A stretch of 64,000 bases of DNA, taken from contig CM119371.1 in assembly GCA_051294905.1 (NCBI GenBank), positions 8,186,001-8,250,000 of the forward strand, given 5' to 3'. The stretch is from Botryllus schlosseri. Its lineage: Eukaryota. The notes under the pieces were generated by a model that saw only the letters and a list, made by a program, of their open reading frames with translations, made no database searches and was not told the origin of the DNA. The translations under genes were made by a program, and so were the position numbers. Below are positions 20,981 to 64,000 of the stretch, piece by piece. How positions within the stretch are numbered: the stretch's first letter is position 1; each line of letters begins with the position of its first letter.

Positions 20981-22379
20981 GTTATCTATAGTAATCTAGA
21001 GTCTGTCAGCCGTCAGTAACATCTGATGCAGCAACGAAGACATGGGTGCCGCCGTGCCGGCCTGTGACGACATAATGAATACTTGTCAATTGTCGATAAC
21101 ATCATAGTTGCACTAGAACGCACTATACTCCGTGCCATTGCTGTGTCCAGCATTAAAATTCTGATGCGGCGTTTTAACACTGGCACTGTACTCATTAACA
21201 TTAAGTCATACAGCTCAATTCAATATTCAAATGTGCGATTATTATTCAACTGTAACTGTAGTAAGAGCAAAATGGCCGGATATAACGACGGGATCAATAG
21301 AAATTCGATTTGTACCAAATGGCCAATGGCTTGACGTTCGATATTGGTGCACTCGTTACCAGTCCATCCGGCGTCGATCAAGTTTATCGGAATAATATTT
21401 TCCCGTTGAAACGGATCGAATGATCGAATTAAACACTGTCCCATGCACATTGCGCCATGCCCATAACGAATTACACTATGCAGTGGGCACATTGCACATT
21501 TACAAGTTTACGAAACAGATGATTACAAATTGGAAATCGCGCATCAAATCAGTAATTTGTCTCCAACATAGATACCATGAGGTTTGTGGCTATTCTTCTG
21601 TCATCCCCTATTTGAGCTCGAAAATCCTCACTAGAGTGAATGACAAGGATGCGCAGTAATGAATTGCAATTAGCATGCATAATTGCCTACTCGCAATAAT
21701 ACTGTCCAATTTCGCGGGCCGACTAAAGAACTATCACGAGTATTTGCTCATCCGAATTTCTCGGCTCGTGCTCGTCATATCGACATGTACAACGAAATCA
21801 CGTTTTTAACCTCTCTCCCATTTCGCGTATTACATAGTGATCATTATTTTCGAACCGTCTACAGTTGGCCAACAAGGTTGTGCTGATGATGAAATTGCGG
21901 GTATGCCGAATACCCACAATATTCACAGGCATATTTCGCATACCGAGGTTCGGCATTCATGTATGAAAATTGAACATCGAACATACGACTGCTCTGCTGT
22001 TAAACCCCCAGAAACATGGTTAGTCGGAAAAGGTAGCGCCAAAGAGGAAAAGATTCTTAATTTCGCGAAGGCCTGCTGTTGAATTATGTGAACTCAGCAG
22101 ACATGGTTGTTGCATATATAATAGCATCTTATGAAATACGTCGGAGCCGGAGCTACCCCTCAAATACCTGGCTCCAGCTCCGGCTCCGGCTGAATTTTAT
22201 GTGAAGCTCCGGCTCCGGCTCCAGCTCCGGTAAAAATGCACGGCTCCGGGGCTCCGGGCTCCGGCTCCAAAGCCCTGCTTGACACCTCCCAATTTTGTAA
22301 ATACCATCTATTGCTGTTACACTCCGTTCATTGAAAATTTGATACGTTTTCAAAGGTAGCATCATTTCATGTTAACAAG

Positions 22380-23797
22380 CCTCATCTACTACTGATATCT
22401 CAGAAAATGTCCTTGAACTGGGCAATAAATACTTGATGGTGGATACTGAATATTTCACTAAGCGGGTCGAAGTGTACCCGATGAAGGACCTTCGAGTTGT
22501 ATTAGCAGCCGATATTCTTGTGACGGAATTATTTTGTAAGTTGGGCGCACCGAATATTATCCACACTGATCAAGGAGTGCAATTTGAATCCACGTTATTT
22601 CAAGAAATGTGTGAATTGTATGAAATTTTTAAGACTACATCTACTACTTTTCTACCGCAATCCGATGGGTTAACTGAGAGAAATAATATGTCCATTTTAC
22701 AGATGTTGACCAGTTATGTGAATGAGAGTAGATCTGATTGGGAAGTTCATCTGCCACATTTATTACAAGCTTGTCGTTCAAGTGCTCATGATTCCCCTTA
22801 GTACTCTCTTAATAAGTTATTTCGTGGTCGTGAGGTTTCCTTGACGAGTGATATTGTTTATGGTAGACCTGCGAAATGTACGTCGTGCAAATGTTACACT
22901 GAATATGTCGAATAGTTTTCTGCGGCCAGTGTTGATGCTTTTAAATTGGCACGTGAGAAATTGCGTAGATCTGCTGTGAAACAGAAAACGTATTTCAATC
23001 GTTATGTTGATTCGCATGAATTTTATGTCGGCTCTTACGTTTGGTTTTATCAGCCGCTGAGCATAGGGAGTTTTCCTCTGGTTGGAATGGTCCATGGCAA
23101 GTTGTCGAGAAATTAGAAAATATCGTGTATCGCATTCATAATATCGACACTGGCAATTTTCGCATAACCCCTGTTGATAATCTCCATCCCTTCATTGTTG
23201 AAGGTGAAGAGGATTTACCACCAGTCACCGGCAGAGTCTGCAAATTATGAAACCGTTGTCATACGTGCTGCCTCTTCCAATTGTGAAGTTAATGTCATGC
23301 GCAGACGTAATCGTATTCGACCATGTATATTTGATTGACTATGTGACAGACTTCAGTTGATCCACCTATTTCATGTGATTGCTTTTTCTGTACATATTTT
23401 CATTTTTATTTATTTTTGCTCCGGCCTTGCCGCCTGTCAGTGATCTTTCTTCCTCCTAGCTCACTCAAGTTGGGAGGGGAGAGGTAGCCTATAACCACCC
23501 GGATCCGGAAGCTTGGTGATCCCCGGTTGGGAGGTCACGTCGGCGGAAAAAAGGAGAACTGTTACTGGTTTGCTTCTTCTGCTACGCAACTTTATAATTG
23601 ACTGCTGCTTTTGAGCAATACACAATGTGAGTTTGCACTCGATCGAACCTCTCATTTCAGTCTCGAACCTGAAAGAGAGTGGCATCATCTTCTGTGAGGT
23701 AGATAGATTATTAGAAGAACAGAAGACAGGACGGCCACAATACATAGAACTGACCTTTGACTGACTGCACTGCTCCAGAATCTGATCGCCGTTCACA
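22380..23797 (+). mobile_element. Gypsy LTR-retrotransposon 3' remnant (integrase core, GPY/F module, PPT, possible LTR)
   Basis: EYFTKRVEVYP..GAPNIIHTDQGVQFES..PQSDGLTERNN..DWEVHLP; then WNGPWQVVEKLENIVYRI after stops/frameshift; purine tract gggagggggagagg at ~23471; candidate LTR ends ...gttcaca at 23797. Confidence 0.85.
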
Positions 23798-29059: not shown

Positions 29060-30560
29060 AACATTAGCAATTTTATCAGTCAATACACCACAAAATGCGA
29101 TACAAAGAAAAGATAGGAAGGTGTCGCAGCGACTTGGAGTAGTCTATGTAATCAGACACCCACCTTGGCCTAGGCGATGTAAAGAGGAGGCATGCACACC
29201 GAATGAAAAGTAAAGAAGATAGTATAGAAAAAAGCAAACGACAAAAAAGGGGTGGGTGGCATGTCATGGAAGGCGAGATCGATAGATCAGTCGTGGTCAG
29301 GCAATCTTGAGGATGGACAAGTATTTATTTAGTAGTAATTGCTTGTATTTCGACTTCAATGTGGACAGGCTCGTCGACTGTCGGATGGCCGACGGGATAC
29401 TGTTCCACACATCAGGTCCGGCAGATTTGGAGCGATGATCTTTTCGATCGATCATATGATATTTGGACGACGTGGACGCGCGCTTTTGATTCAGAGGTAA
29501 AAAGTCATTGGAATATTCGGGGCAACGACCGCAGTGGAACTGATACATAAAGTTAGCGATTTCTAGTTTCCGCACATCTTCTATGTTTAGGACACCGAAT
29601 CTCTTCAGCAGCGACTTGTTGGATGGACAACCAGGCCCCTGTGGGGCTCTAGCTATGATACGGAGTACCTTATGTTGTAGTTTTTGCACTGGATCGAGTG
29701 CCAATTTATTGGCAGCCCCTCAACAAAGGATGCCATATTGTATCTTCGATTGGATTAAGGATTTAAAGAGTATCAGAATAACCCTGGCTTGCATGAAGCG
29801 TCCAAGGCTGTAGAACAGGCGCACTTCGGTGATAGTTTAGTGTCTAGGGACAGAATATGACTCTTCCAGGACATGTTCGAGTCCAGTAAAACCCCGAGAA
29901 ATTTGGCATTATCGGTGTTGGAAACAGGCTGACCAGCGACGTTAACGGTTAGGTTATTTTTTGAATTTACTATCAGCAATTGGGATTTCGAGTCGTTTAT
30001 GCCAAGGTTATTTTGGGCAGTCCACTCGTGCACTTTGGGCATTTGGTCACCAGTCAAGGCATCCAGCTCTGCCGTTGAAGATGCAGAAGAGAGGAGGTGA
30101 GTATCATCAGCGAACAGTGTGGTGTTCAATGAAGAGGTTTCAAAGAGGTCGTTGACATATAAGGTGAAAAGGGCCGGTCCAAGTACTGAGCCTTGGGGTA
30201 CACCACAGGTTACCAGGTGAGGAGAGGACAAGGTGTTTGAGATTGCAATTGCAATTGGAAATGAGATGCACGGTGCGATTCCTGAAACGTCGAAATCTTT
30301 CTCGTTCATTTTCTGGGCAGTTCTTGGTGTTTATTCGGTTATGCCACCGGTTTCGTTTACGGATAAGTTGAATCAACTTTGTGGTCATCCACATATTTCG
30401 CTTCAATTTTTGTTTACTTCTCAATATGCGCTGCAGAGGTGCAAATTGTTCCAGCAGTGATTTGATAGCAGACCTAAACTCTACATATTGTTCGTCAAAG
30501 TTGCTTATCGAGAGGGTCCTGGGTGTTAAACTGTCCAGTCCTAGGCACGTTCAAGTTGGT
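29060..30560 (-). mobile_element. CR1/L2-group LINE remnant (reverse transcriptase and 3' UTR, internally deleted)
   Basis: GVPQGSVLGPALFTLYVNDL..LFADDT..KFLGVLLDSNMSWKSHI; C-terminal LQHKVLRIIA..GPDVWNSIP; upstream WMTTKLIQLIRKRNR joined directly to the late RT region, so the early RT is missing. Confidence 0.9.
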
Positions 30561-47436: not shown

Positions 47437-49905
47437 TTCATATTGAAATGAGCCCGAATATTTTCGGCTGACACTCGTCAAGGGTAATCGTCAGCAACTA
47501 GTAGAGAATTGGAAAGAATATTGCATTAATGTATATTAGGGCGGTTCAAAAATAACCTTTTTTCTTTAATCTTGCGGGTTACTTGATTAAATCGTTAGGT
47601 TGCTTTAAAAAACGACGCACAGCAAATTTGAATTCATTCCAACCAATATTCGCGGATTTCGTAGAGTTTGAAAATTTTGAATTTGCCTAAAAATGCAAAA
47701 AAAATTGTATATCGACAATCGTATCACAAAATATGACGTCACCAGCATGAAAGAGAGAGCGTTCAATGTACTATTTTTAGGTGGTACACGAACTCCTTTT
47801 ATTGACAGAGTTTTGGTCGGTGTATTTTGATAAGAGTCGACTCCGAGGCACACAAATGGAATTGTGAACGGTCGCGCGCAACTATTCGAAATCGGTCGTC
47901 TCGATAATTATTCGCACTAATCGGATTATGTAACAGATGTTTGCCGATGGCATAATTAATGGCCTTTGATCAGTCAGCATCAATCTTAAGCGGATGAGTT
48001 AGGGTGTACCAGGTAAAAATAGTACATTGAACCAGCGTGTACTCAAAGGTGGTGTTGCCACTCGGAAAATCACGTGACTGTCACGCCCAGATGCATTTGA
48101 TGACTTTGCTAGTATCGATCCGTCTGCAGCAGTAATTAAAGGCGAAGTCGCTATTGGTCTTTGTAGATTTTGACTGTGTTCCATATCGAGTTGGGTGACA
48201 GGATTTGGTATGGTATATTTTGATGCTGTCATCCAGCACTGTACCTCGTTTCAAGGCTGTGACTCAATGATTAGCGTAATAATTTATCTGCCAAAGTCGA
48301 GTATCTGGTAGATGAGCGCGCACCGATACATTGCCGACTTTGATAACGGAATTACTATGTTAATCATTGAGGGACAATCCTGAAACTTACTGCGAAGTTG
48401 TATAACACAACCAAGATATACCATACCGAATTTCGTCATCCATCTCGGTATGGAACACTTTGAAAGGTCACATATACCAATATCAAATTTCGCGAAAATT
48501 CCTTTATGCGGTAGGCTCAATGCCAAATCAGCGCACGCACACCCTGGAAACTAGACTTCGATAACGTACTTACTACTGTAATTATCGAGTCGCAGCCTTG
48601 AAACTTGGTACAGTGTTAGATTCCCTCACCAAGATATATAATAGCCTACGAAATTTTGTTATCCATCGCCGTATAAAATTCATTCAAATTGTACACATAC
48701 CAATACCGGCTTTTGCGAAAAATCTTATATGCGGTATAGGCTGAATGCCAGATCAGCGCGTACCCTGACATACTCGACTTTGATTACGAAATTGCTACCG
48801 TAATCATTGAGTTACAGCTTTAAAACCCGATACAGATCTATATTACGAAATTCTGTTATCCATCGCGAAATAAAATACATTCAAAACTTACATATAGCAA
48901 TTCCAGCTTTTGTGAAAAATCTGTCATGCGGTAGGCTGGATTTCAACTCAGCGGCCAACCTGATATACTCGAATATGATATCTAAATTACTATCCTAGTC
49001 ATCGACTCACACCCTTGAAAATTGATTCAGTGTAAGATGCAATCATCTGGCCTTCAGCCTACCGCATAACAGATTCTTCGCGAAAGACAGTAGTATTAAT
49101 ATGTGTATATTTTGATTGTGTTCTATATGGCGATGGAAAACAAAATTTCGTATTATATACCTTGATGAGGGAATCTAAGACTGTACCAAGTTTCAAGGCT
49201 GTGACTCGATAATTACAGTAGTATGTACGTTATCGAAGTCTAGTATCCAGGGTGTTCATGCGTTGATTTGGCATTGAGCCTACCGCATAAGGGAATTTTC
49301 GCGAAATTTGATATTGGTATATGTGAATTTTCAAAGTGTTCCATACCGAGATGGATGACGAAATTCGGTATGGTATATCTTGGTTGTGTTATACAACTTC
49401 CCAGTAAGTTTCAGGATTGTCACTCAATCATCAGCTTGGTAATTCCGTTATCGAAGTCGGCAATATATCGGTGCGCGCTGATCCAACAGATGCTCGACTT
49501 CGACAGCGAAATTACTTCGCTAATCATTGAGTTACAGCATTGAAACTTGATACAGTGCTAGATGACAGCATCAAAATATACCATACCAAATCCTGTTACC
49601 GAACTCGATATGAAACACAGTCAAAATCTACAAAGACCAATAGCGACTTCGCCTTTAATTACTGCTGCAGACGGATCGATAATAGCAAAGTCATCAAAGG
49701 TATCTGGGCGTGACAGTCACGTGATTTTTCTAATGTCCACACCACCTTTGAGTACACGCTGAATAAACGCTCCCTCTTTCATGCTGGTGACGTCATATTT
49801 TGTGATACGATTGTTGATATGCAATGTTCTTTCCAATTATCTACTAGTCGACGATTACCCCTGACGAGTGTCAGCCGAAAGTATTCGGGTTCATTTCAAT
49901 ATGAA
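47437..49905. mobile_element. Older palindromic element hosting the 48033-49761 foldback
   Basis: 47437-47527 pairs with 49819-49905; 47709-47790 pairs with 48003-48032 plus 49769-49825; fragments of the family at ~20470-20660, ~52690 and ~55800. Confidence 0.75.
48033..49761. mobile_element. 1.73-kb foldback element with degenerate internal subrepeats
   Basis: cagcgtgtactcaaaggtggt/accacctttgagtacacgctg; arms ~48033-48750 and ~49040-49761 (mirror ORFs 48232-/49562+ and 48526-/49268+); TSD degraded. Confidence 0.9.
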
Positions 49906-50288
49906 TATACTATTCAATTGTATATTGCAGTTCTGTACCTCCAAGAAGCTCTGCAATACCGGATGAAATCCTGAAAAAATGGTAATTTTTTCTCAATTCG
50001 TGTTCGATTGACTAAAATAAGGCCAACTTTACGGCTCATATCTCGAAATAGCCGCCGGAGCGTTCGTTACTTCAATGCTGATTTACTGCATGTCAGTCAA
50101 ATTTTTTGCATACAACATTCTAAAAGAAGAGTACATAGGGGCATCCTCTGAGGACACTATCAAAAAAGTAAAAAAGGGGACAAATCCTCTTAAAAGAGGA
50201 AGTGTGGTACCCCTAACATAGAATGTTATTATATATTTTCAGTATTGTCATATACGCTAGCTAATTAGTATACCACGTTATCAAGACC

Positions 50289-50364
50289 ATGGCAGAAGGA
50301 TGTAAATATAACAATTCTGATGTCGCTGATGTCAAGGCTACATCAATATCGCCCGAAATAAGCG
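50289..50364 (+). CDS. NLR gene, first coding exon
   Basis: accATGG context; MAEGCKYNNSDVADVKATSISPEIS; G|GTGAGT donor, phase 1. Confidence 0.6.
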
Positions 50365-50585
50365 GTGAGTATCCCAATGTCTGTATTGAGCTCAGACTAC
50401 TTAAAATACATGATTATATTATCCATCTAAAACAGCTGAGAAGTAATTCAAATACCGTACATTTTGCTCGTTGCGCAAATAATATTCCGAAGTATATCGA
50501 AGAAAATAAAAGAATTCATATTATTTTCTAATAAGGCTGTGTATGGAACCTGGCAAGCAGAGCAATAATAATGTGCTTTTCATAG

Positions 50586-50732
50586 GATCCGCAACTTTGG
50601 CCGAAGGAGAAAATGTCAATCTGAATTTCACAATGAGCTCTGTTAATCTCGTGGCCAGAGATCAAATCAATGCGAACAAGATCGTCTACAATATTACAAG
50701 AGCTGAAGGAGAAACACCTTCCGGGATTATAA
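50586..50732 (+). CDS. NLR gene, exon 2 (N/Q/V/I-rich N-terminal motif)
   Basis: gcttttcatAG acceptor, A|GTCAGT donor, 147 nt, phase 1-1: GSATLAEGENVNLNFTMSSVNLVARDQINANKIVYNITRAEGETPSGII; joins exon 1 and the NACHT exon in frame. Confidence 0.6.
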
Positions 50733-50889
50733 GTCAGTATAATGCTCTTTCATACAATACGGTGTGCATATTTAAGATAATGATCTGCTGAAAGTGCCTT
50801 TTCAATGAATTTCTTATGAGAAATAGCAATGATTGGGAGAGCGTGTCATCCAAGTTACAGCGATGTCATATCGATATTGAGCTCTGGAA

Positions 50890-51330
50890 GACACAAAAAT
50901 CGTCTCAAGTTAGACAAGGATAAAACTGAACTCATCATTTTTACGCCAACCAGACGCCCCATCGACCGCAATCTATTCACCATCAGATTTGGGCCAGACA
51001 CCATCCAAACCAAGACCTGTGTACGTAACCTAGGTATTCACTTTGACGGCATGATCTCAATGGAAAAACATATCGACTATACATCAAAGATCTGTTTCAT
51101 GTATATCCACAAGATCAGTCGAATCAGGAACTACCTATCTGAGGATGCATGCAAAGCCATAATCTGTAGGTGGTGATATCACGGCTTGACTATGGAAATG
51201 CTCTACTTTACGGGGTAAACCAAAATTGCATCGACAGGCTACAAAAGATCCAAAACATCGCTGCTGGTTTGGGAACTCGGTCAAAGAAGCGTGATCAGTG
51301 ATCACGTAACGCCGATTTTTGTTGCATTTG
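50890..51330 (+). mobile_element. L2-clade LINE C-terminal fragment in an NLR intron
   Basis: NRLKLDKDKTELIIF..VRNLGIHFD..ISRIRNYLSEDACK, frameshift, ISRLDYGNALLYGV..LQKIQN..HVTPI. Confidence 0.85.
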
Positions 51331-51974
51331 GAAAGTTGCAGTAAAGATTTGCATTTATAATTTTTTGATATATCAGGGTATTAGATACTCGAAAAGTTTA
51401 AGATTTGCAGGGTGTCTGTTTTTTTTTAGCTTCTTTGTTCGTTATTCAATGAATCATGAATACCATTTTATGCTGTCAAATATGGTAATTTCTTATTTCA
51501 CGAACGGCCTGGCGAGACCGCTGAAACTCACATGTCTTGCTGGTACGCAGCAAGAAAGTAACGCAACACGCGGAAGTAATTTTCCGCGAAAATCCATGCA
51601 TATCCATAAAACAAGTCAAGTATCACGCACCTGAAACCCCTAGATTTGCAAACTTGACCCAAGGCATTGCAGCAATACGCAGTGTTCACGACTTCAACAA
51701 AATCAATATCCTGAAAAGGTAACCCAGTGAAAGTGTCATTGTCAGCGGTCTCGTTTGAGCGTCCGAATTGAAGGACGTCAGATTGAAACGAAAGTGAATA
51801 AATCAAGCGATTTATTGTATATATATAGAGAGAGAGAGATCAGGCACTGTCGTCTTTGGATGTGGTTTTTCAACTTCTTGGTGCAAGCCGTTGCGCCGTA
51901 GATATCATTAATATGCAGCTAATCCATCACATAGCTCTTTGTTGAGCAAATCGAGCAGAACTGATACTGATACT

Positions 51975-53130
51975 GTTACTGACTATCGATCTCGTTTTCA
52001 GTGAAATGCCACTCCATTTTTTCGCTTGCTTTTTTTCTGTACTACTTTAACATCTCATTCAGTGTATATGCCTCCTCTTTACATCGACTAGCCCAGGGCC
52101 GGCCAACCCGTGACCCGCGCGAAGGTTTTGAGTGGCTCGCAAGGCAATTCTTGAAATTACTTATAATATCAAAAAATGAATTAGCCAGGTAATTTATTGT
52201 AAACTTGCAAGAGCAACCGAAAATATGATTAGCCTGGCCGCCGATATTGGGACGTTAATGACTAAAATATCAGTTCCGACGTATTGGCGTAGCCAGGGGT
52301 CCTCCACATTTTCGTAGATCTTCGTATATGACCATCAACTAGAATATTTCAGATTTATCAGATTTATTTGACTTAATATTTTACAGCACTGTGTGCGATC
52401 TATTGCTTTTAGTATTGTTGCCTTCTCATGGAAATCAAAACTACGCCTAATTTACGGAATTGAGTGTAACTATATCGGCAATTATGCGAGAATGTGTGGT
52501 CCGACATTCGACTTGGCGACTGCGCTCCCGGAAAGATCGTCAGCGATGAAAATTTGCACAAACTGACAGACGCACGTTCACTTAATCCTTCGATATTGAT
52601 ATGTCAAGGCGCCGATTAATCATGTCCTGGCCAAATGAGCCCAGCAGTATACAGGAACGACCCACCACAATATATACAACTAACATTATTTTGAAGAGCT
52701 TCTTGGAGGTACAGAACGTCAATATACAATTGTATAACATTATTTTATTGACCTATCTTTCATTACTTTTGAGAAAATTCGCGCATGGCGCGGCTACGAC
52801 ATGTACAATTGTACATATAGTGTTCGTGACATAAGTGTTACCATATTGATTTTTTTGTTTATAGTATATAATTCCTTTTTACCTTTACCTAATCCGATTC
52901 GCTCTTATCAGACGACTAAAAGGAAATCAACATACAAGTGGCCCGCGCAATGCTTCGTAAATATTATGTGGCCCTTTAGCCGAAAAGGTTGGCCACCCTT
53001 GGCCTAGGCCAAGGTGGGTGTCTGATTGCAAAGACTACTCCATGTGGTTTCGACACCTTCCTATCTTTTTACTGCGTCGCAATTTTATGGTGTATTGAAC
53101 TGATAAGAATTGCTAACAAACCGAACCGAA
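51975..53130 (+). mobile_element. 3' UTR fragment of the 29-30.5 kb LINE family, split by a hAT MITE (52094-53001)
   Basis: gcctcctctttacatcg..|..cctaggccaaggtgggtgtctgatt..ggtgtattgaactgataa matches the reverse complement of ~29065-29290; MITE cagggccggccaacc/ggttggccacccttg. Confidence 0.8.
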
Positions 53131-53239
53131 AGAGAACCATACCAGAAATAGTTTTATAGCATGTTTTTTTAAATTACTCCTTTAAATTTTGAGCAATACT
53201 TGATAAAAGTTACAATAATTTTTTTTTCTGCCGGCGTAG

Positions 53240-54778
53240 ATTACTGGAAATTGATAAAGGTTATAAACGACCATACTCTACAAGAAACGGCAAATGGCAT
53301 TCGCGAAGACTTCAAGAATGAATTTCCTCACGAACCTGACTTCGAAGTTTTCCCGCAGATGAAAAAGTTTAATGCTGATGAATACTACAAAGGCCGTATT
53401 CACGAACAAAAATCTTCAAATGATGAATCTGTTCTTGAATCTAGAAAGAAAGCTTTTAAAAGTCAGTTGATAGAGGAAATCGGGTTTTACCGTCAATCCG
53501 AAAATTACGGTAAACCGATAACAATGGAAGAGATAATGGAATGGCTGTCAAAGTCCGAGAAATTACCTCATGACAACAAAGTTGGTTACACTGCAATTGT
53601 CGCTTCTGCGGGATCGGGTAAAACTACTCTCGTGCGTAGAATTGCACAGAAAGCGCTCGTAATTCCCTCCGCGAAGGAAAAGGATGAAGCGGTTCCGTTA
53701 AGGAAATCTAATCTCTTCCGTAGACTTGTCCGCATGACTCTCCGAACTTCTTCTGGCATTGAAAAAGGTAAGCAATCTTCTTCCGAACCGAAACCGAAGC
53801 AAAAAATGATACATTACGTCGAATTGAAGAACATGAAAGAACAGAACTGTATGAAAGCATCCAAATTCATATTCGGCGGTCTGTTTGAAACTGAGTATGA
53901 AGAAGATGAATCTTTCAAATGGCTGCTCGAGAATCAATCCAAAGCAATTATCATTTTTGATGGGCTTGATCAAGTAAAGTGGGATTTTGAGGAGTCTACC
54001 GTACGAAATATAAGGACGTTTGAAAAAGCGACTACGTCGACCATCATGTACAACATCCTATCACGCAGAATTCTTCCCCATGTCAAAATCATCGTGGCGT
54101 CACGTGAATTCAAAGTCTCCGAGTTACCGGCGGAGGCACGTCCGCAAGATATTATCACACTTACCGGTCTCACACTGCAAGACGCTTCTAAACTGTTTAC
54201 TTGTCTGCTCTGTGAGAACGGGCAGCGTCTCTGGAAAAATATTGAAATCATGTCACCGCGATTAATACAACTAGTATCGCTCCCGGTTTTCCTGATTTTG
54301 ATAGCAGTGGTGATGGGAATTGATCCAGATAGACCTCCTCCGTCTACCGTGACAGAATTGTACAGCAGGATCATGTTAGTATTACGGAGTGTGGAAAATA
54401 TCCGAAACCGTAAGCAAATCCTCTCGATTATCAACAAATTGAAGGAAATGGCGTTTAAAGGCATGAGAGAGGGACGAGTCGTATTCTACAAGGCAGATTT
54501 GGATCGGTTTAGAATATCGGCGGACGAAGTACAGGATTTGATGACGAAAGTGCCTGGCAACAACATCCTAAGCCGTCACTTGATGGAAGGCGACTTCACA
54601 TTCTTCTTCTGTCATCAAAGCATGCAGGAATTTCTGGCAGCTAGTTTTATCTCGGAAATGGAGCTCGAAATGTTCATTCGCTTTGATGGCCAACATCTAC
54701 ATGAGAAACGATGGTCCGTGGTTCGAAGATTCGTTACAGGCATCGTTTACATGAAATCTAATTACGATCTTCACAACG
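53240..54778 (+). CDS. NLR gene, NACHT exon (NBD-HD1-WHD-HD2)
   Basis: Walker A ASAGSGKT, Walker B IIIFDGLDQ, sensor-1 IIVASR, LPVF, WHD FFFCHQSMQEFLAA, WSVVRRFVTG; ttttttctgccggcgtAG acceptor and G|GTGAGT donor. Confidence 0.95.
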
Positions 54779-55301
54779 GTGAGTAATTATGGTTTTCCAT
54801 GGCTATTCTGCCGCATCACCGATTGATTATTATGGTCGCTTATGGTTTATCATGACTTTGATGGTATTGTCACAATGGAAGGGTGAAATAGTCGAAAGAT
54901 CTTAAATTCATACAAGGCTGGTAAATAAGTCTTTACATTCAGTCGGCTAAATATAACTTATATATCTAAAATTTGCATAAATTCGCAGATTATTGAACGT
55001 GAGCGCTACCAGGGCCCATCGATGATCACTATGTGACATTGTTTGTTTGTTTGTTTCGGGTATATATGGTGTCTGTCGACTAAAGGTGTCATTTACACCA
55101 GTCCTATTTTTGCATTTTTGAATTTGCATCCGCCGACTTGTAGCACGGCCCACTTCTAATCTTTTTGAAAGATACAGCTTCCGGAGGGTGAGCCTAAATA
55201 AACCTCCAACACTTAGGTATGAATTCTGGACCCGATCTTAGTCGAACATGCGATATTGATGCGCATGAAATGCTCTTGTTATTGTGAACTAGACATTAGA
55301 G

Positions 55302-56753
55302 CAGCGGTTCTCAACCGGGGGTCCGCGGACCCCTGGGGGTCCGCGAAGCAATTTCAGGGGGTCCGCGAGACCTCTAAATTTTCAAAATGGTTGATAACGT
55401 AATTTATATTTTATTTTTTAATTTGAGAAAGCATGAGGCAGTTTCGCACCACAACTGCTAAAACCTCATGACTCATATCATCATAATAATCGTCTGACAT
55501 GAACTATCGTAGTGTGGAAATTCATTTTCATTGCCAATTTTCCAATAACTTGCTGATACAAACATATTGCTGTTTAGAGACGTTTTGATGGGGCTTATTG
55601 ACAAAATAAAAATATGGAGATAGTAACGTCAATCAGGGTGACTTCGTAATGTCTTGTCGATTTGAAGTTGTCAGTCTCATCAAATTAGTGAACAGTCGTT
55701 TGAAATAAAAATTTCCGAAGTATTTCCCTAATTTGTCCCAATGCAGGGATTGAAACCTCGCCACGAAATCCATTTTGTCCTGTGATTACATAACCACTAT
55801 TTGAACAGTTTCTTGGAGGTACAGAACTTCAATATACAATTGAATAGTAGATTAATATTGAAATGTGCCCGAATATTTTCATAAATAGGACGATGATAAA
55901 CCTGCTCTTGAAGCTCGGCTATCAGATTTGGCGCATTCTTATTGCGGATGCCCTATCGACAAAGCTGATTTTTTTTATGAACAATAAGGGGTGTTTCGTT
56001 GCTATCAAAGCATTACGCTCCAACCCTAAAATTCATGTCACCAGTTATATTGGTATGCAGCCTTGTCTTGTTAATGTTCAATTGTTAATGGTCCAAAATG
56101 TTTGCTCGTAAATATATATGTAAACCCGAACAGAACAAGTCGTTTCGTGACAGTCTTTCTCAGGTTGAAAAACTTGGTTCCATTATTTGGCGCATAAAAT
56201 TTGTCTATACTATTAGACTAGGATTTCACTTTGACGGTGGAAACTCTCTGCGGGCCGATCAAAATGCCGTCGCGAGCCGTATGTTGCCCGTCCCTGCGCT
56301 AGATGCAGGACGTGATATCTTCATAAAATATATGTTTCTTAATTTTGGTGCCATAAATGCTGCGATCACACCAAAAGTATCGTCGGAAGCGTTATGCGTT
56401 AATACTGCATTAGCCTCCATCTATCTTTGCGGAAATGGTTTTGGGCACTCCTCGTTCATATCAAAACGAAGACGCGGATTTTCAAGACACGACCACGTAC
56501 TTCAAGAAATACAGCAGCAAAATTAGCTTTGAAATAATAAAAGTCTATCCAATTTCTACATAAATAGGATGATGTTATTTTCAAGAAAAATCGTGATTTT
56601 GCTGTTTATCACAAGCCTACAGTTAGTATTTGCACAAGACAGATGAAGGTTGCACCATAATAGAGCTAAAATTGAACAAAAACTTGAGGGGGTCCGCGAG
56701 GGTCCGTGACGGTCAAAAGGGGTCCGCAAAGCCAAAAAGGTTGAGAACCACTG
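55302..56753. mobile_element. hAT MITE (GGGGTCCGCG family) in an NLR intron
   Basis: cagcggttctcaacc/ggttgagaaccactg; perfect TSD CATTAGAG. Confidence 0.92.
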
Positions 56754-56883: not shown

Positions 56884-57188
56884 TGACGGATCAAACACAG
56901 AAGCAACAAGCTTTATCTCAATCGGTCCTTTCACAACTTCACGATAACGAAGACAGATATGTTCGCATGGAACTATATACAGCAATCTACGAATCGGGCG
57001 ACGACAATCCTATGAAAGATCTTTCCGTCATCGACGCATCTTATATCTCATTGAATCGCGATGAAGCTCATATCGTTGGATCGCTCGCAGCAAGGAACCA
57101 AAGCCTTCGTTCTTTGAATTTATTCAACTGCAGTATCGACGACGAGCTTTTGAGCATCATTGCAAGGTGTCTGGAAAATAGAATACGA
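56884..57188 (+). CDS. NLR gene, HD2 end and first LRRs
   Basis: ttgacAG acceptor (phase 1), CGA|GTGAGT donor (phase 0); MELYTAIYES..LSVIDASYISLNRDEAHIVG..SLRSLNLFNCSIDDELLSIIARCL (ribonuclease-inhibitor-like LRR). Confidence 0.88.
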
Positions 57189-62906: not shown

Positions 62907-63403
62907 ATTATCACTAACCAATTCCCGTATTTTGAAACCAATGTAACACTCGCATTAACGATAATTCGCCGAATTATCTCTGTTTATTGTAGGTTAGAAC
63001 ACTGCAAATACATACTAGCTCTACGTTATTACCATTCACCAAAGCCAGCTATTCCCAATTCAATGTAATTTTGCTTAAAACCTTCATTTTTCAACGCTTT
63101 TCCATTAGCGCTCATAGTAAACTTGCCCGGCCTTGTACTTTGTTTACATCGTGCTGCAACCTGATTGGCTCGTATCAAAGGTCACGTAAGTGTCTATTAA
63201 AGAGTACGGTGTATTCCTAGAATTGATTGAAGCCGTTTGAATGGATTAGTAAAAGACCGTGGCTCTAAACATTGGATCGTTTGCCTTTATTATGGGGATG
63301 GCAATTATGTTCCAAAATATGCCCTGAATAAGCATGTGCAAAGCTCTGTTAGTTTGACATCATATTGGCAGACATTGTATTCATGTTTCATTCATCATTC
63401 CAG

Positions 63404-63508
63404 GTGAAGAAAGTGGATTTGCGTCGCAATAATTTCTCAGCAACAGCAGTACGTTCACTTCTCGGGCATCGTCGGATTGAATCGCTATCTGGAAAATTGG
63501 ATTGGGAA
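63404..63508 (+). CDS. NLR gene, further LRR exon
   Basis: ttcatcattccAG acceptor, phase 0, matching the 57188 donor; VKKVDLRRNNFSATAVRSLL (LxxLxLxxN). It ends either at the GAA|GTGAGA donor or reads through to TGA at 63526. Confidence 0.75.
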
Positions 63509-64000
63509 GTGAGATCGACTCTATGATTTAGTTGTGTACTAATAAGCCCGTATAATTTTATGTGGGTATGCGGAGACTTGTGACGAGATTGGTGACGCCA
63601 TAGTCGTGATAGAAAGCATTATACATACATTATCTGCATTAGGGCTGTTGAAAAAACCTTCACACTTCTTCGGCTATGTTATAAAATTGTTAGGTTGGCG
63701 AGAACATTGCTGCACGCCAACTTTGGGTCAATTGCAACCAGTAGAAGAGATTTTCTTGCAGTAGAAAATTTTGGATTTATCTTTAAAAAATTAAATTTTA
63801 AAATTTTTCTGTCAACAACGTAAAACTGTTGGGCTGTCAGTAGAGACGATGCACAACAAATGTGACTCAATACCAACCACTACAAGCAAAGTTATTGCGA
63901 TAAAAAATTTTGGATTCGAATAAAATAATTTTACGGTAGCTACGGCAGTTACGGAAAATAAAAAGAATATCGGCCTGGTGTAAATGACCATAGTAGTCGA

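What the first reader, a model, noticed from the sequence alone, without database searches (positions are those of the whole stretch)
50586..50732. Animal NLR with a candidate amyloid signalling motif in place of a death-fold domain
Seen: exon 1, exon 2 and the NACHT exon splice in frame, leaving only ~75 aa before the pre-NACHT region and no CARD/DD/DED/PYD/TIR that I can recognise. Exon 2 encodes GENVNLNFTMSSVNLVARDQINANKIVYNI: alternating hydrophobic/polar strands, rich in N/Q/V/I, with no proline in the core. Known: fungal and bacterial NLRs signal through short N-terminal amyloid motifs (HET-s/HRAM, sigma, PP, BASS), several with a (A/G)RDQxN/I-type core as I recall; the animal counterpart is RHIM. 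Inference: this is a non-RHIM, prion-like NLR signalling module in an invertebrate chordate, packaged in a symmetric phase 1-1 exon that could be shuffled.
Basis: partly seen in the sequence, partly recalled or inferred. Interest (0 to 1): 0.8.

Follow-up and report, generated by a model that had tools for sequence, protein, structure and literature searches.

The report
Short repeat motif heading tunicate NLRs
A small, well-conserved exon gives a large family of sea-squirt-type immune receptors a short, repeat-built head piece where a death domain would normally sit; whether it signals by forming amyloid remains untested.

Summary
Exon 1 (50289-50364), exon 2 (50586-50732) and the NACHT exon (53240-54778) join in frame with canonical splice sites, and no death-fold domain was found. 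Exon 2 is no accident. Its peptide has 116 open-frame matches in this genome, 73 of them upstream of a NACHT exon. Its core is under purifying selection (pN/pS 0.28). It aligns with a distant paralogue where the introns do not.

New points:
- The genome is probably a tunicate, not amphioxus. All 19 annotated relatives are Styela clava NLRs, and GH6 hits are present.
- The exon is built from about 2.5 copies of a 17-residue unit.
- The Styela NLRs carry tandem 33-residue repeats in the same position. These align weakly with the motif (hhalign P 0.003), and a Death domain takes that place in one paralogue.

The amyloid reading is neither shown nor excluded.
- Against it: no RHIM or HET-s profile match, the G-phi-Q-phi-G signature is absent, no motif-bearing non-NLR partner was found, hydrophobic/polar alternation is not significant, and the Styela repeats are highly charged.
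- For it: position in the protein, Asn richness, conserved Gly/Asn/Gln and the pseudo-repeats.

No transcript evidence was obtained. Best reading: a lineage-specific N-terminal interaction module of unknown assembly mode.

The parts
50289..50364 (+). Exon 1: start codon plus 25 codons and 1 nt (MAEG... leader), phase-1 GTGAGT donor
   Evidence: A matching exon (MAEG.., 25 codons + 1 nt, GT donor) lies 162-225 nt upstream of the motif exon in 12 of 20 loci, the window's own included. Styela clava relatives start similarly (MADQC.., MTDQC..).
50586..50732 (+). Exon 2: 147-nt symmetric phase 1-1 exon encoding the N-terminal motif module
   Evidence: 116 genomic matches, conserved splice sites, exon-only conservation against L039, and core pN/pS of 0.28.
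50588..50638 (+). 17-residue unit R1 (residues 1-17 of the exon peptide)
   Evidence: Self-similarity of the family profile. Offset 17 has z 3.88 and is reached by 1 of 2000 column shuffles; 26 offsets were tested. The best segment pair is reached by 11 of 1000 shuffles.
50639..50689 (+). 17-residue unit R2 (residues 18-34)
   Evidence: This is the part that aligns with the Styela 33-residue repeat.
50690..50731 (+). Partial unit R3 and variable tail (residues 35-48)
   Evidence: layout. Tail codons 38-47 have pN/pS 1.29. Alignment columns 46-51 are mostly gaps.
50733..53239 (+). Intron 2 (2.5 kb), differing from close paralogues by insertions
   Evidence: window 50812-51315 has no counterpart in L021, L022 or L026.
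53240..54778 (+). NACHT exon (513 codons, phase 1-1): conserved pre-NACHT segment, Walker A GSGKT, NACHT, winged helix
   Evidence: The pre-NACHT segment is conserved in 12 paralogues and recognisable in the Styela proteins.
55302..56753 (.). 1.45-kb repeat insertion in intron 3, absent from paralogues L021, L022 and L026
   Evidence: The stretch has high read and contig depth typical of a dispersed repeat.
56884..57188 (+). Exon 4: helical linker and first LRR
   Evidence: acceptor ..ttgacag|TG in phase 1, donor CGA|GTGAGT. LRR_6 E 0.014, below cut-off. Conserved in paralogues.
63398..63532 (+). Possible further exon of the same gene (uncertain)
   Evidence: The only evidence is a 78% nt match to the distant paralogue L039 downstream of its LRR exon. 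It was not analysed further.

Best explanation
Exon 2 is a genuine coding exon. It supplies the N-terminal module, at the effector position, of a large lineage-specific NLR family in a tunicate-type genome. The module is short (about 40 conserved residues), unfolded on its own, and built from about 2.5 copies of a 17-residue unit. Each unit carries conserved Ala/Gly, acidic, Asn/Gln and aliphatic positions.

The module is packaged as a symmetric phase 1-1 exon, and that exon has been duplicated within genes. It is probably related to the 33-residue tandem repeats that head Styela clava NLRs.

Inferred mechanism: the ligand-bound NACHT-LRR part oligomerises and brings several of these heads together. 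The heads then associate with one another, most likely as beta structure with one unit per rung. This builds the platform that passes the signal on, taking the role that Death, CARD or PYD domains play in other NLRs.

Shown: the exon, its conservation, its position, its repeat build and the absence of a death fold. Inferred: self-association, beta structure and signalling. Whether the assembled state is a self-templating amyloid is open.
For: - Gene model and absence of a death fold.
- Family size and linkage to NACHT: 116 matches. 13 of 20 ten-kb loci show the NACHT exon downstream. 73 of 116 matches pair with one of 124 NACHT loci within 40 kb on the same strand, median 8.9 kb. This is a lower bound, because only 84 of 217 and 94 of 224 NACHT candidates were scored.
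- Selection and exon-only conservation.
- 17-residue periodicity.
- Conserved A2, L4, A5, G7, N9 and the V-N-V-V-A-G-D-Q-I block.
- AF2 monomer with a 64-sequence alignment: mean pLDDT 56 and no secondary structure. This is compatible with a segment that folds only on association.
- Relatives: all 19 annotated relatives found are Styela clava NLRs. Their N-termini are tandem peptide repeats placed directly before the same pre-NACHT segment. Copy number runs from 2 to about 12, and isoforms P0026 and P0027 differ by two repeats.
- hhalign of the family against 17 Styela repeat units: P 0.003, 28 columns, 36% identity.
- The Styela paralogue P0029 has a Death domain in that position (E 4.5e-5, 23.9 bits against a cut-off of 22.6).
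- Exon duplication: 8 NACHT loci have two motif exons.
Against: - No transcript evidence for this copy. There was zero depth on exons 1-2 and at most 0.8 on the NACHT exon in about 1.9 and 1.5 Gb samples of two bulk RNA runs, and no joint at either junction.
- Self-association is not shown by anything.
- Beta character is weakly founded. Hydrophobic/polar alternation and the hydrophobic moment at 160-180 degrees are not significant.
- Paralogues carry indels inside the second unit (12-15 of 64 lack alignment columns 31-33). That sits uneasily with a fixed rung.
- The link to the Styela repeats has hhalign probability of only 10%. A plain HMM search of the 19 Styela proteins gave nothing better than E 0.1.
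- The Styela repeat has 9 charged residues in 33, which does not look like a stacking beta rung.
- 43 of 116 motif exons have no NACHT assigned.
Confidence: 0.45

Rival explanations
1. The module is a prion-like amyloid signalling motif. NLR oligomerisation nucleates a cross-beta fold, and that fold templates the same motif on a separate effector protein, as with NWD2/HET-S or BASS/Bell pairs.
For: - It sits at the N-terminus of an NLR, is short, and is unfolded as a monomer.
- It is Asn-rich.
- It has conserved Gly and Asn/Gln at fixed places in a 17-residue pseudo-repeat. This recalls the two-rung HET-s build and the multi-copy BASS and RHIM arrangements described in 10.1101/2020.01.06.895854 and PMC4262963 (passages read).
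- Tunicates were reported to lack RHIM (PMC4262963, section 4), so another motif could fill that role.
- Four motif exons on contig 8 lie 4-8 kb upstream of NHL-repeat genes.
Against: - No motif-bearing non-NLR partner was found. Every motif match sits in a short separate open frame of 39-156 aa.
- The NHL gene in L081 has its own ATG, and its first acceptor is out of phase with the motif exon's donor. The four copies are tandem duplicates, so they are not independent evidence.
- In Styela clava, the only 2 proteins under 917 aa that carry the related repeat both have NACHT.
- 0 of 64 members hit RHIM, HET-s_218-289, NACHT_sigma or Ses_B in Pfam at E<=10. No RHIM or HET-s chain appeared in the PDB profile search at E<=10.
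- Indels occur in the core, and the Styela repeats are charged.
Confidence: 0.15
2. The module is a flexible array of short linear motifs, or a regulatory leader. It stays unstructured and binds a globular adaptor or enzyme multivalently, or it controls localisation or auto-inhibition. There is no self-templating.
For: - Variable copy number and alternative isoforms in Styela.
- Indels and a fast-evolving tail.
- Charged, low-complexity relatives.
- No predicted structure.
- No partner sharing the motif.
- A parallel case exists: exon-encoded ~30-aa N-terminal peptide repeats of unknown function in zebrafish NLR-B30.2 proteins (PMC4852459, passages).
Against: - About 25 consecutive positions are conserved, with pN/pS 0.28. 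That is more than a typical 4-8-residue linear motif needs.
- The 17-residue periodicity suggests a structural repeat.
Confidence: 0.25
3. The motif is a very divergent RHIM, like the RHIM-NACHT-repeat protein BF82280 reported from Branchiostoma floridae.
For: - By eye, V-x-x-G-D-Q-I-x-x-N-K-phi resembles the RHIM alignment printed in supplement 1 of PMC4262963. A Gly two residues before an invariant Gln-Ile is shared.
- The architecture is the same as BF82280.
Against: - The G-phi-Q-phi-G signature is missing in 64 of 64 members. Asp replaces the first phi, and no member has Gly straight after Q-I.
- There is no Pfam RHIM match.
- Tunicates were reported to lack RHIM.
- A profile-profile test against RHIM could not be run.
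Confidence: 0.04
4. The segment has no function of its own. It is a neutral leader carried along with a recently amplified gene family, and this copy may be silent.
For: - Many copies are recent segmental duplicates with 86-90% identical introns.
- No reads fell on exons 1-2.
- The introns are full of repeats.
Against: - The core is under purifying selection while the tail is not.
- The exon is kept, with splice sites, in paralogues whose NACHT exons are only 45-50% identical.
- A related repeat sits in the same position in another genus.
Confidence: 0.08

Closest known systems
N-terminal 33-residue (and ~66-residue) tandem repeats of annotated Styela clava NLRs (P0022, P0025-P0028; P0031, P0032, P0036)
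   Same: They occupy the same place, between an MA[DE]x.. start and the same conserved pre-NACHT segment. They have the same N/T/V/I/Q-rich style. They align with the second unit of the motif (hhalign P 0.003). Copy number varies, and no Pfam family covers them.
   Different: They form long arrays of up to about 12 copies, against about 2.5 short units per exon here. They are much more charged. Homology is likely but not established (probability 10%). I found no paper describing them (searches).
NLR-associated amyloid signalling motifs of fungi and bacteria (HRAM/HET-s with NWD2, sigma, PP, PUASM, BASS1-10)
   Same: A short, non-globular, N/Q/G-containing motif at the N-terminus of a NACHT receptor, in place of an effector domain. 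Pseudo-repeats are present.
   Different: The defining pairing with the same motif on an effector was not found. There is no profile match. Amyloid formation is untested. Here the motif sits on more than 70 receptors of one animal genome.
RHIM, and the Branchiostoma floridae RHIM-NACHT-repeat protein BF82280 (Kajava et al. 2014, PMC4262963)
   Same: This is an animal NLR-type protein with a short amyloid-type motif where a six-helix death-fold domain would be. The general idea is therefore already in print.
   Different: The G-phi-Q-phi-G core is absent in 64 of 64 members. There is no Pfam RHIM hit. The lineage is different, and the same paper says tunicates appear to lack RHIM.
N-terminal ~30-aa exon-encoded peptide repeats of zebrafish NLR-B30.2 (NLR-C) groups 2-4 (Howe et al. 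2016, PMC4852459)
   Same: A hugely expanded chordate NLR family whose N-terminus is made of short peptide repeats, with one exon each. The repeats are shuffled between family members, can stand in for death-fold domains, and have no known function.
   Different: No sequence comparison was possible. The fish proteins have a FISNA domain, and no FISNA match was found here.
Effector-associated domain 10 (EAD10, PF19954) of bacterial conflict systems
   Same: It is an adaptor shared between STAND NTPases and effectors. 3 of 64 members gave weak hits.
   Different: The best hit is E 0.01 and 16.3 bits against a cut-off of 24.1, which is about what chance gives over 64 queries. EAD10 is described as a mixed alpha+beta domain of 77 positions (PMC7159879 passages).

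Membership tests
NLR (NACHT-LRR receptor) | NACHT NTPase domain with Walker A | tested here: met
   PF05729 E 3.4e-16, 60 bits against a cut-off of 26.7. NOD2_WH E 9.1e-6. GSGKT is present.
NLR (NACHT-LRR receptor) | C-terminal leucine-rich repeats | tested here: inconclusive
   LRR_6 E 0.014 and LRR_1 E 0.092, both below cut-off, in the one downstream exon examined. Later exons were not mapped.
RHIM | Central G-phi-Q-phi-G signature (as stated in 10.1101/2020.01.06.895854) | tested here: not met
   Family columns 24-29 read G-D-Q-I-(N/H/Q/L). 0 of 64 members have Gly directly after Q-I, and Asp or Asn replaces the first phi. The window copy reads R-D-Q-I-N.
RHIM | Match to the Pfam RHIM profile PF12721 | tested here: not met
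   0 of 64 members at E<=10. HMMER filters drop most hits above about 0.1. The genome-wide search with the 22-position model found nothing, and its control rang nowhere, so that search is uninformative.
HET-s / HRAM prion-forming motif | Match to PF11558, or to solved HET-s chains | tested here: not met
   0 of 64 in Pfam. The PDB profile search at E<=10 gave only two unrelated chains.
HET-s / HRAM prion-forming motif | Pseudo-repeats, each forming one rung of a beta-solenoid | tested here: inconclusive
   A 17-residue pseudo-repeat is supported statistically. No structure was predicted, and the repeat length differs from the 21-26 residues given for HET-s.
NLR-associated amyloid signalling motif (class) | Short motif at the NLR N-terminus in place of an effector domain | tested here: met
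NLR-associated amyloid signalling motif (class) | Same motif on a separate effector protein | tested here: not met
   All 116 and 110 matches lie in short separate exons. 73 of 116 are assigned to NACHT genes and the rest are unresolved. The NHL adjacency fails the phase check. In Styela, 2 of 2 shorter repeat-bearing proteins have NACHT. The search is incomplete: there is no annotation of this genome, and Styela proteins of 917 aa or more were not screened.
NLR-associated amyloid signalling motif (class) | Beta-arch or amyloid propensity, and fibril or prion formation | not testable with these tools
   No ArchCandy or comparable predictor, and no experiment. Simple alternation and moment tests were not significant.
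EAD10 (PF19954) | Profile match above the gathering score | tested here: not met
   Best 16.3 bits against 24.1; 3 of 64 members at E<=10.
Styela-type NLR N-terminal peptide repeat | Profile-profile similarity and the same position in the protein | tested here: inconclusive
   The position is identical. hhalign gave P 0.003 but probability 10.4%. hmmsearch gave a best E of 0.1 over 19 proteins.
Fish NLR-B30.2 (NLR-C) | FISNA domain before NACHT | tested here: not met
   No FISNA match in the NACHT exon, or in four pre-NACHT segments, at E<=10.

The most novel reading that the evidence does not exclude
A tunicate lineage that lacks RHIM has evolved its own prion-like signalling head. It would be a HET-s-style beta-solenoid built from 17-residue rungs, carried as a shuffle-able exon on more than 70 NLR receptors, and expanded to long arrays in Styela. 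Receptor oligomerisation would nucleate a self-templating polymer. This would be the first non-RHIM amyloid signalling module of an animal NLR.
Probability: 0.15. Interest if true: 0.85.

Novelty: new variant of a known kind. Interest (0 to 1): 0.5.

Why it matters
Expanded invertebrate NLR families are usually catalogued by their death-fold or TIR heads, and receptors without a recognisable head are set aside as 'NACHT-LRR only'. Here, more than 70 receptors of one genome share a conserved, selected, exon-packaged head of about 40 residues. A related repeat heads the NLRs of another tunicate genus. So a whole branch of chordate innate immunity probably signals through a module that no domain library knows. 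If the module self-assembles, it gives a simple, testable peptide for asking how far amyloid-like or other proximity-driven signalling extends in animals beyond RHIM. If it instead binds an adaptor, it points to an unknown downstream pathway. It is also a clean example of a symmetric exon being duplicated and moved within an immune gene family.

Tried and rejected
- RNA evidence. No RNA holder was listed for the stretch. Laying two contig sets and two raw bulk RNA runs gave no reads on exons 1-2 and no splice joints, so nothing can be said about expression.
- Homo-oligomer prediction of four copies: no verdict, score 0.01, and the alignment was not used. It is not evidence either way.
- AF2 of the pre-NACHT 135 aa: mean pLDDT 43.8. 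This is too poor for a fold search, so none was run.
- ESM Atlas look-ups: no usable hits.
- Word-based search with the 48-aa peptide among longer proteins: none.
- Profile search of 1.84 billion representatives: 18 hits. 13 are 40-124-aa prokaryote-style ORF calls that read through the same exon into intron. 5 are long repetitive proteins; of the four examined, three carry Ig-like or prealbumin-like beta-sandwich domains and one only DUF4347, and the fifth (P0018) was not examined. No true relative outside this lineage was found.
- My first assumption that the genome is amphioxus was wrong and was dropped.
- NHL-repeat genes downstream of four contig-8 motif exons looked like a motif-bearing partner. 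The NHL gene has its own ATG, tiny introns of its own and an incompatible acceptor phase, so this is rejected as support and kept only as a lead.
- Downstream context of three other unassigned motif exons (L082, L083, L084): nothing recognisable within 6-7 kb.
- A genome search with the alignment was not accepted for this genome.
- Cys5 of exon 1 as an acylation site: it is Gly in most paralogues, so rejected.
- N-glycosylation sequons (N-F-T, N-I-T) were noted, but there is no signal peptide in exon 1, so this was not pursued.

Full report
**The observation**

The sequence is as described. An ATG at 50289 sits in a strong context and opens a 76-nt exon ending at 50364 before GTGAGT. After a 221-nt intron, an AG at 50584-85 opens a 147-nt exon (50586-50732) that ends before GTCAGT. 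After a 2.5-kb intron, the acceptor ..gcgtag opens the large exon at 53240. All three junctions are in phase 1.

The product is 25 residues, a junction Gly, then 48 residues that contain the quoted peptide, then the NACHT-exon product. I extended the model. The NACHT exon ends at 54778, giving 1539 nt, again phase 1-1. The next exon is 56884-57188.

Pfam finds NACHT (E 3.4e-16) and a NOD2-type winged helix in the large exon, and nothing in exons 1 and 2 even at E<=10. I scanned 74 of the window's 78 listed ORFs. The 4 left out were the NACHT and LRR ORFs and two antisense ORFs under the NACHT exon. The set included every plus-strand ORF of 60 aa or more in the 10 kb upstream. Only transposon domains (rve, RVT_1) and weak chance matches appeared, and no death-fold family.

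**Is it more than chance?**

Yes, clearly.

- The 48-residue peptide has 116 six-frame matches in the window's own 495-Mb assembly. About 66 have E<1e-3, and none is interrupted by a stop.
- In the copies I read, the acceptor (..yttag|GATCyGCA..), the phase and a GT donor are kept.
- An alignment of 64 copies gives 58% mean column identity. Five columns (A2, L4, A5, G7, N9) are conserved at 90% or more, and there is a conserved V-N-V-V-A-G-D-Q-I block.
- Close paralogues are segmental duplicates whose introns also align. Against the distant paralogue L039 (NACHT exon about 50% identical), only the exons align, and exon 2 aligns at 74% nt identity.
- Among 13 close copies (78 non-independent pairs), pN/pS is 0.28 for codons 1-37 and 1.29 for the tail.
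- A matching exon 1 (MAEG.., 25 codons + 1 nt, GT donor) lies 162-225 nt upstream in 12 of 20 loci, the window's own included.

- Hydrophobic/polar alternation is not beyond what the composition gives. 541 of 5000 shuffles reach the observed count, and there is no hydrophobic-moment peak at 160-180 degrees.
- Proline is tolerated at one core column in 12 of 64 copies.

Asn enrichment is real: 7/30 against 22/514, p 2e-4.

**What the exon belongs to**

- In 13 of 20 ten-kb loci around paralogous exons, the NACHT exon follows on the same strand.
- I paired the coordinates of all 116 matches with 124 distinct NACHT loci found by two genome searches and one fetched locus. 73 of 116 have a NACHT exon within 40 kb downstream on the same strand, median 8.9 kb. 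This is a lower bound, because only 84 of 217 and 94 of 224 NACHT candidates were scored.
- Eight NACHT loci have two motif exons upstream. In L016 both copies keep splice sites and phase 1-1. The symmetric exon has therefore indeed been duplicated within genes.
- A second search with a divergent member found 110 matches, several at new places. All lie in short open frames of 39-141 aa. The motif never sits inside a larger exon.

**Which organism**

I first took the genome for amphioxus, and that was wrong. A search with the NACHT exon among longer proteins returned 19 hits at E<=1e-20. All are annotated Styela clava (tunicate) NLRs at 30-43% identity, and none is from amphioxus. The genome also has two loci with a GH6 domain above the Pfam cut-off inside 531- and 545-codon open frames. 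From my own knowledge, not from a call, GH6 occurs in animals only in the tunicate cellulose synthase. No tool named the organism, so 'tunicate-type' is an inference.

**The relatives change the picture**

- The Styela proteins begin MADQC../MTDQC.. (compare MAEGC.. here). They continue with tandem copies of a 33-residue repeat, 2 to about 12 copies. Isoforms P0026 and P0027 differ by two copies. In other members the repeat is about 66 residues.
- A Pro/Ser linker follows, and then the same conserved pre-NACHT segment as in the window (..EPDFEV.P..).
- No Pfam family covers the repeats.
- One paralogue, P0029, has a Death domain in that place (E 4.5e-5, just above cut-off). This supports the framing 'in place of a death-fold domain'.
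- hhalign of the 64-member family against 17 distinct Styela repeat units aligns 28 columns at 36% identity, P 0.003, but with probability of only 10%. A plain HMM search gave nothing better than E 0.1.

I regard the relationship as likely, not established.

**Internal build**

The family profile is similar to itself at an offset of 17 residues. The z-score is 3.88, reached by 1 of 2000 column shuffles, with 26 offsets tested. The best segment pair is reached by 11 of 1000 shuffles. Laid out at period 17, the exon gives two full units and a partial third. The Ala, Gly, acidic, Asn/Gln, aliphatic and Asn positions fall on top of one another. Two units make 34 residues, close to the 33-residue Styela repeat.

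**Tests of the amyloid reading**

Profile tests are negative.

- 0 of 64 members match RHIM, HET-s_218-289 or any other amyloid-motif family in Pfam at E<=10. HMMER's filters weaken this.
- The only repeated weak match is EAD10: 3 of 64, best 16.3 bits against a cut-off of 24.1.
- A profile search of all PDB sequences at E<=10 gave two unrelated chains.
- The signature G-phi-Q-phi-G, said to be shared by RHIM, PP and BASS3 (10.1101/2020.01.06.895854, passages), is absent in 64 of 64. The window copy reads R-D-Q-I-N.
- By eye there is a resemblance to the RHIM alignment printed in supplement 1 of PMC4262963: a Gly two residues before Gln-Ile, and an Asn/Lys and an aliphatic residue further on. 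I could not test this with profiles.

Structure prediction is uninformative. The AF2 monomer with the family alignment has mean pLDDT 56 and no secondary structure.

The partner criterion, the same motif on an effector, was not met.

- The only lead was four motif exons on contig 8, each 4-8 kb upstream of an NHL-repeat gene.
- That NHL gene has its own ATG and three tiny introns. Its first acceptor is out of phase with the motif exon's donor.
- The four copies are tandem duplicates, so they are not independent evidence.
- In Styela, the only 2 proteins under 917 aa that carry the 33-residue repeat both have NACHT. Only the 8000 candidates sharing most words were scored, and proteins of 917 aa or more were not screened.
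- The Styela repeat has 9 charged residues in 33, which does not look like a stacking rung.

**What it most likely is and does**

Shown: a selected, exon-packaged, repeat-built N-terminal module of a large tunicate NLR family. It sits where effector or adaptor domains sit and has no recognisable fold.

Inferred, from the established logic of NLR and STAND signalling in which N-terminal domains are brought together by NACHT oligomerisation: the module is the signalling head, and it most likely works by proximity-driven self-association, possibly as beta rungs of 17 residues.

My odds:

- About 0.45 for that general reading.
- 0.15 for true prion-like amyloid signalling with a motif-bearing effector.
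- 0.25 for a non-assembling linear-motif array or regulatory leader.
- 0.04 for a divergent RHIM.
- 0.08 for no function.

**Comparison with what is known**

The idea of an animal NLR headed by a short amyloid-type motif is already in print. Kajava et al. 2014 (PMC4262963; passages, section 4 and supplement read) report many RHIM proteins in Branchiostoma floridae. These include BF82280, with RHIM-NACHT-repeat architecture. The same paper notes that tunicates appear to lack RHIM.

Howe et al. 2016 (PMC4852459, passages) describe ~30-aa exon-encoded N-terminal peptide repeats in zebrafish NLR-B30.2 proteins. These are shuffled between family members, and their function is unknown.

A 2026 survey of cephalochordate NLRs lists CARD, Death, DED and HEPN_DZIP3 heads only (PMC13012124, passages).

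I found no paper describing this motif or the Styela repeats in six full-text searches. Those searches cover only CC-licensed PMC papers and bioRxiv.

I therefore rate the finding as a new variant of a known kind. It is a new, lineage-specific N-terminal NLR module whose assembly mode is open.

**Limits**

- There is no transcript evidence for this copy.
43 of 116 motif exons therefore remain unassigned.
- No amyloid predictor and no profile library of amyloid motifs was available.

Noticed in passing
G000 contig 8, 3.86-4.02 Mb (L081:3714-4702 and three paralogous places): This is a tandem cluster of four units. Each unit has a motif exon followed 4-8 kb later by a six-blade NHL-repeat gene. 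That gene has its own ATG and three very short introns of about 50-60 nt. The four NHL copies are each other's closest relatives (79-88% identity) within a family of at least 56 NHL matches. Whether the motif exon is ever spliced to anything there is unknown.
   Followed up: partly
window 55302-56753: A 1.45-kb insertion in intron 3 is absent from paralogues L021, L022 and L026. It is present in the opposite orientation near L032's gene. Contig and read depth are very high, with many loose ends at 55810-55846, as for an abundant, transcribed dispersed repeat.
   Followed up: partly
window 48284-48550 (-) and 49244-49543 (+): Two copies of the same ~90-aa ORF-bearing element lie in inverted orientation about 0.7 kb apart, just upstream of exon 1. 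Neighbouring ORFs at 47999-48250 (-) and 49562-49762 (+) also mirror each other. No Pfam match was found.
   Followed up: no
window 22376-22798 (+) and 29776-30330 (-): These are retroelement fragments: an integrase core (rve, E 2.9e-7, just under the cut-off) and a reverse transcriptase (RVT_1, E 4e-15).
   Followed up: no
window 50200 / 56125: 14 read pairs of RNA run X13 join 50200 to 56125, skipping 5924 nt, with ends AG..AA and a short side of only 22 letters. This is not a canonical splice. It probably reflects reads from another copy of a repeat shared by both places.
   Followed up: no
Styela clava proteins P0026 / P0027, and P0031, P0032, P0036: Annotated isoforms of one Styela NLR gene differ by exactly two 33-residue repeats. 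A second NLR subgroup carries arrays of a ~66-residue A/E/V/S/T/N-rich repeat. Neither repeat type has a Pfam family.
   Followed up: partly
G000 contig 9, 15025585-15068854 (-): Two loci match the GH6 glycoside hydrolase family above the cut-off, inside 531- and 545-codon open frames. This fits a duplicated tunicate-type cellulose synthase.
   Followed up: no
G000 contig 3, 21.62-21.79 Mb (+): Four divergent motif exons lie 40-85 kb apart, with no NACHT hit assigned. Nothing was recognisable in the 7 kb downstream of the first (L084).
   Followed up: partly
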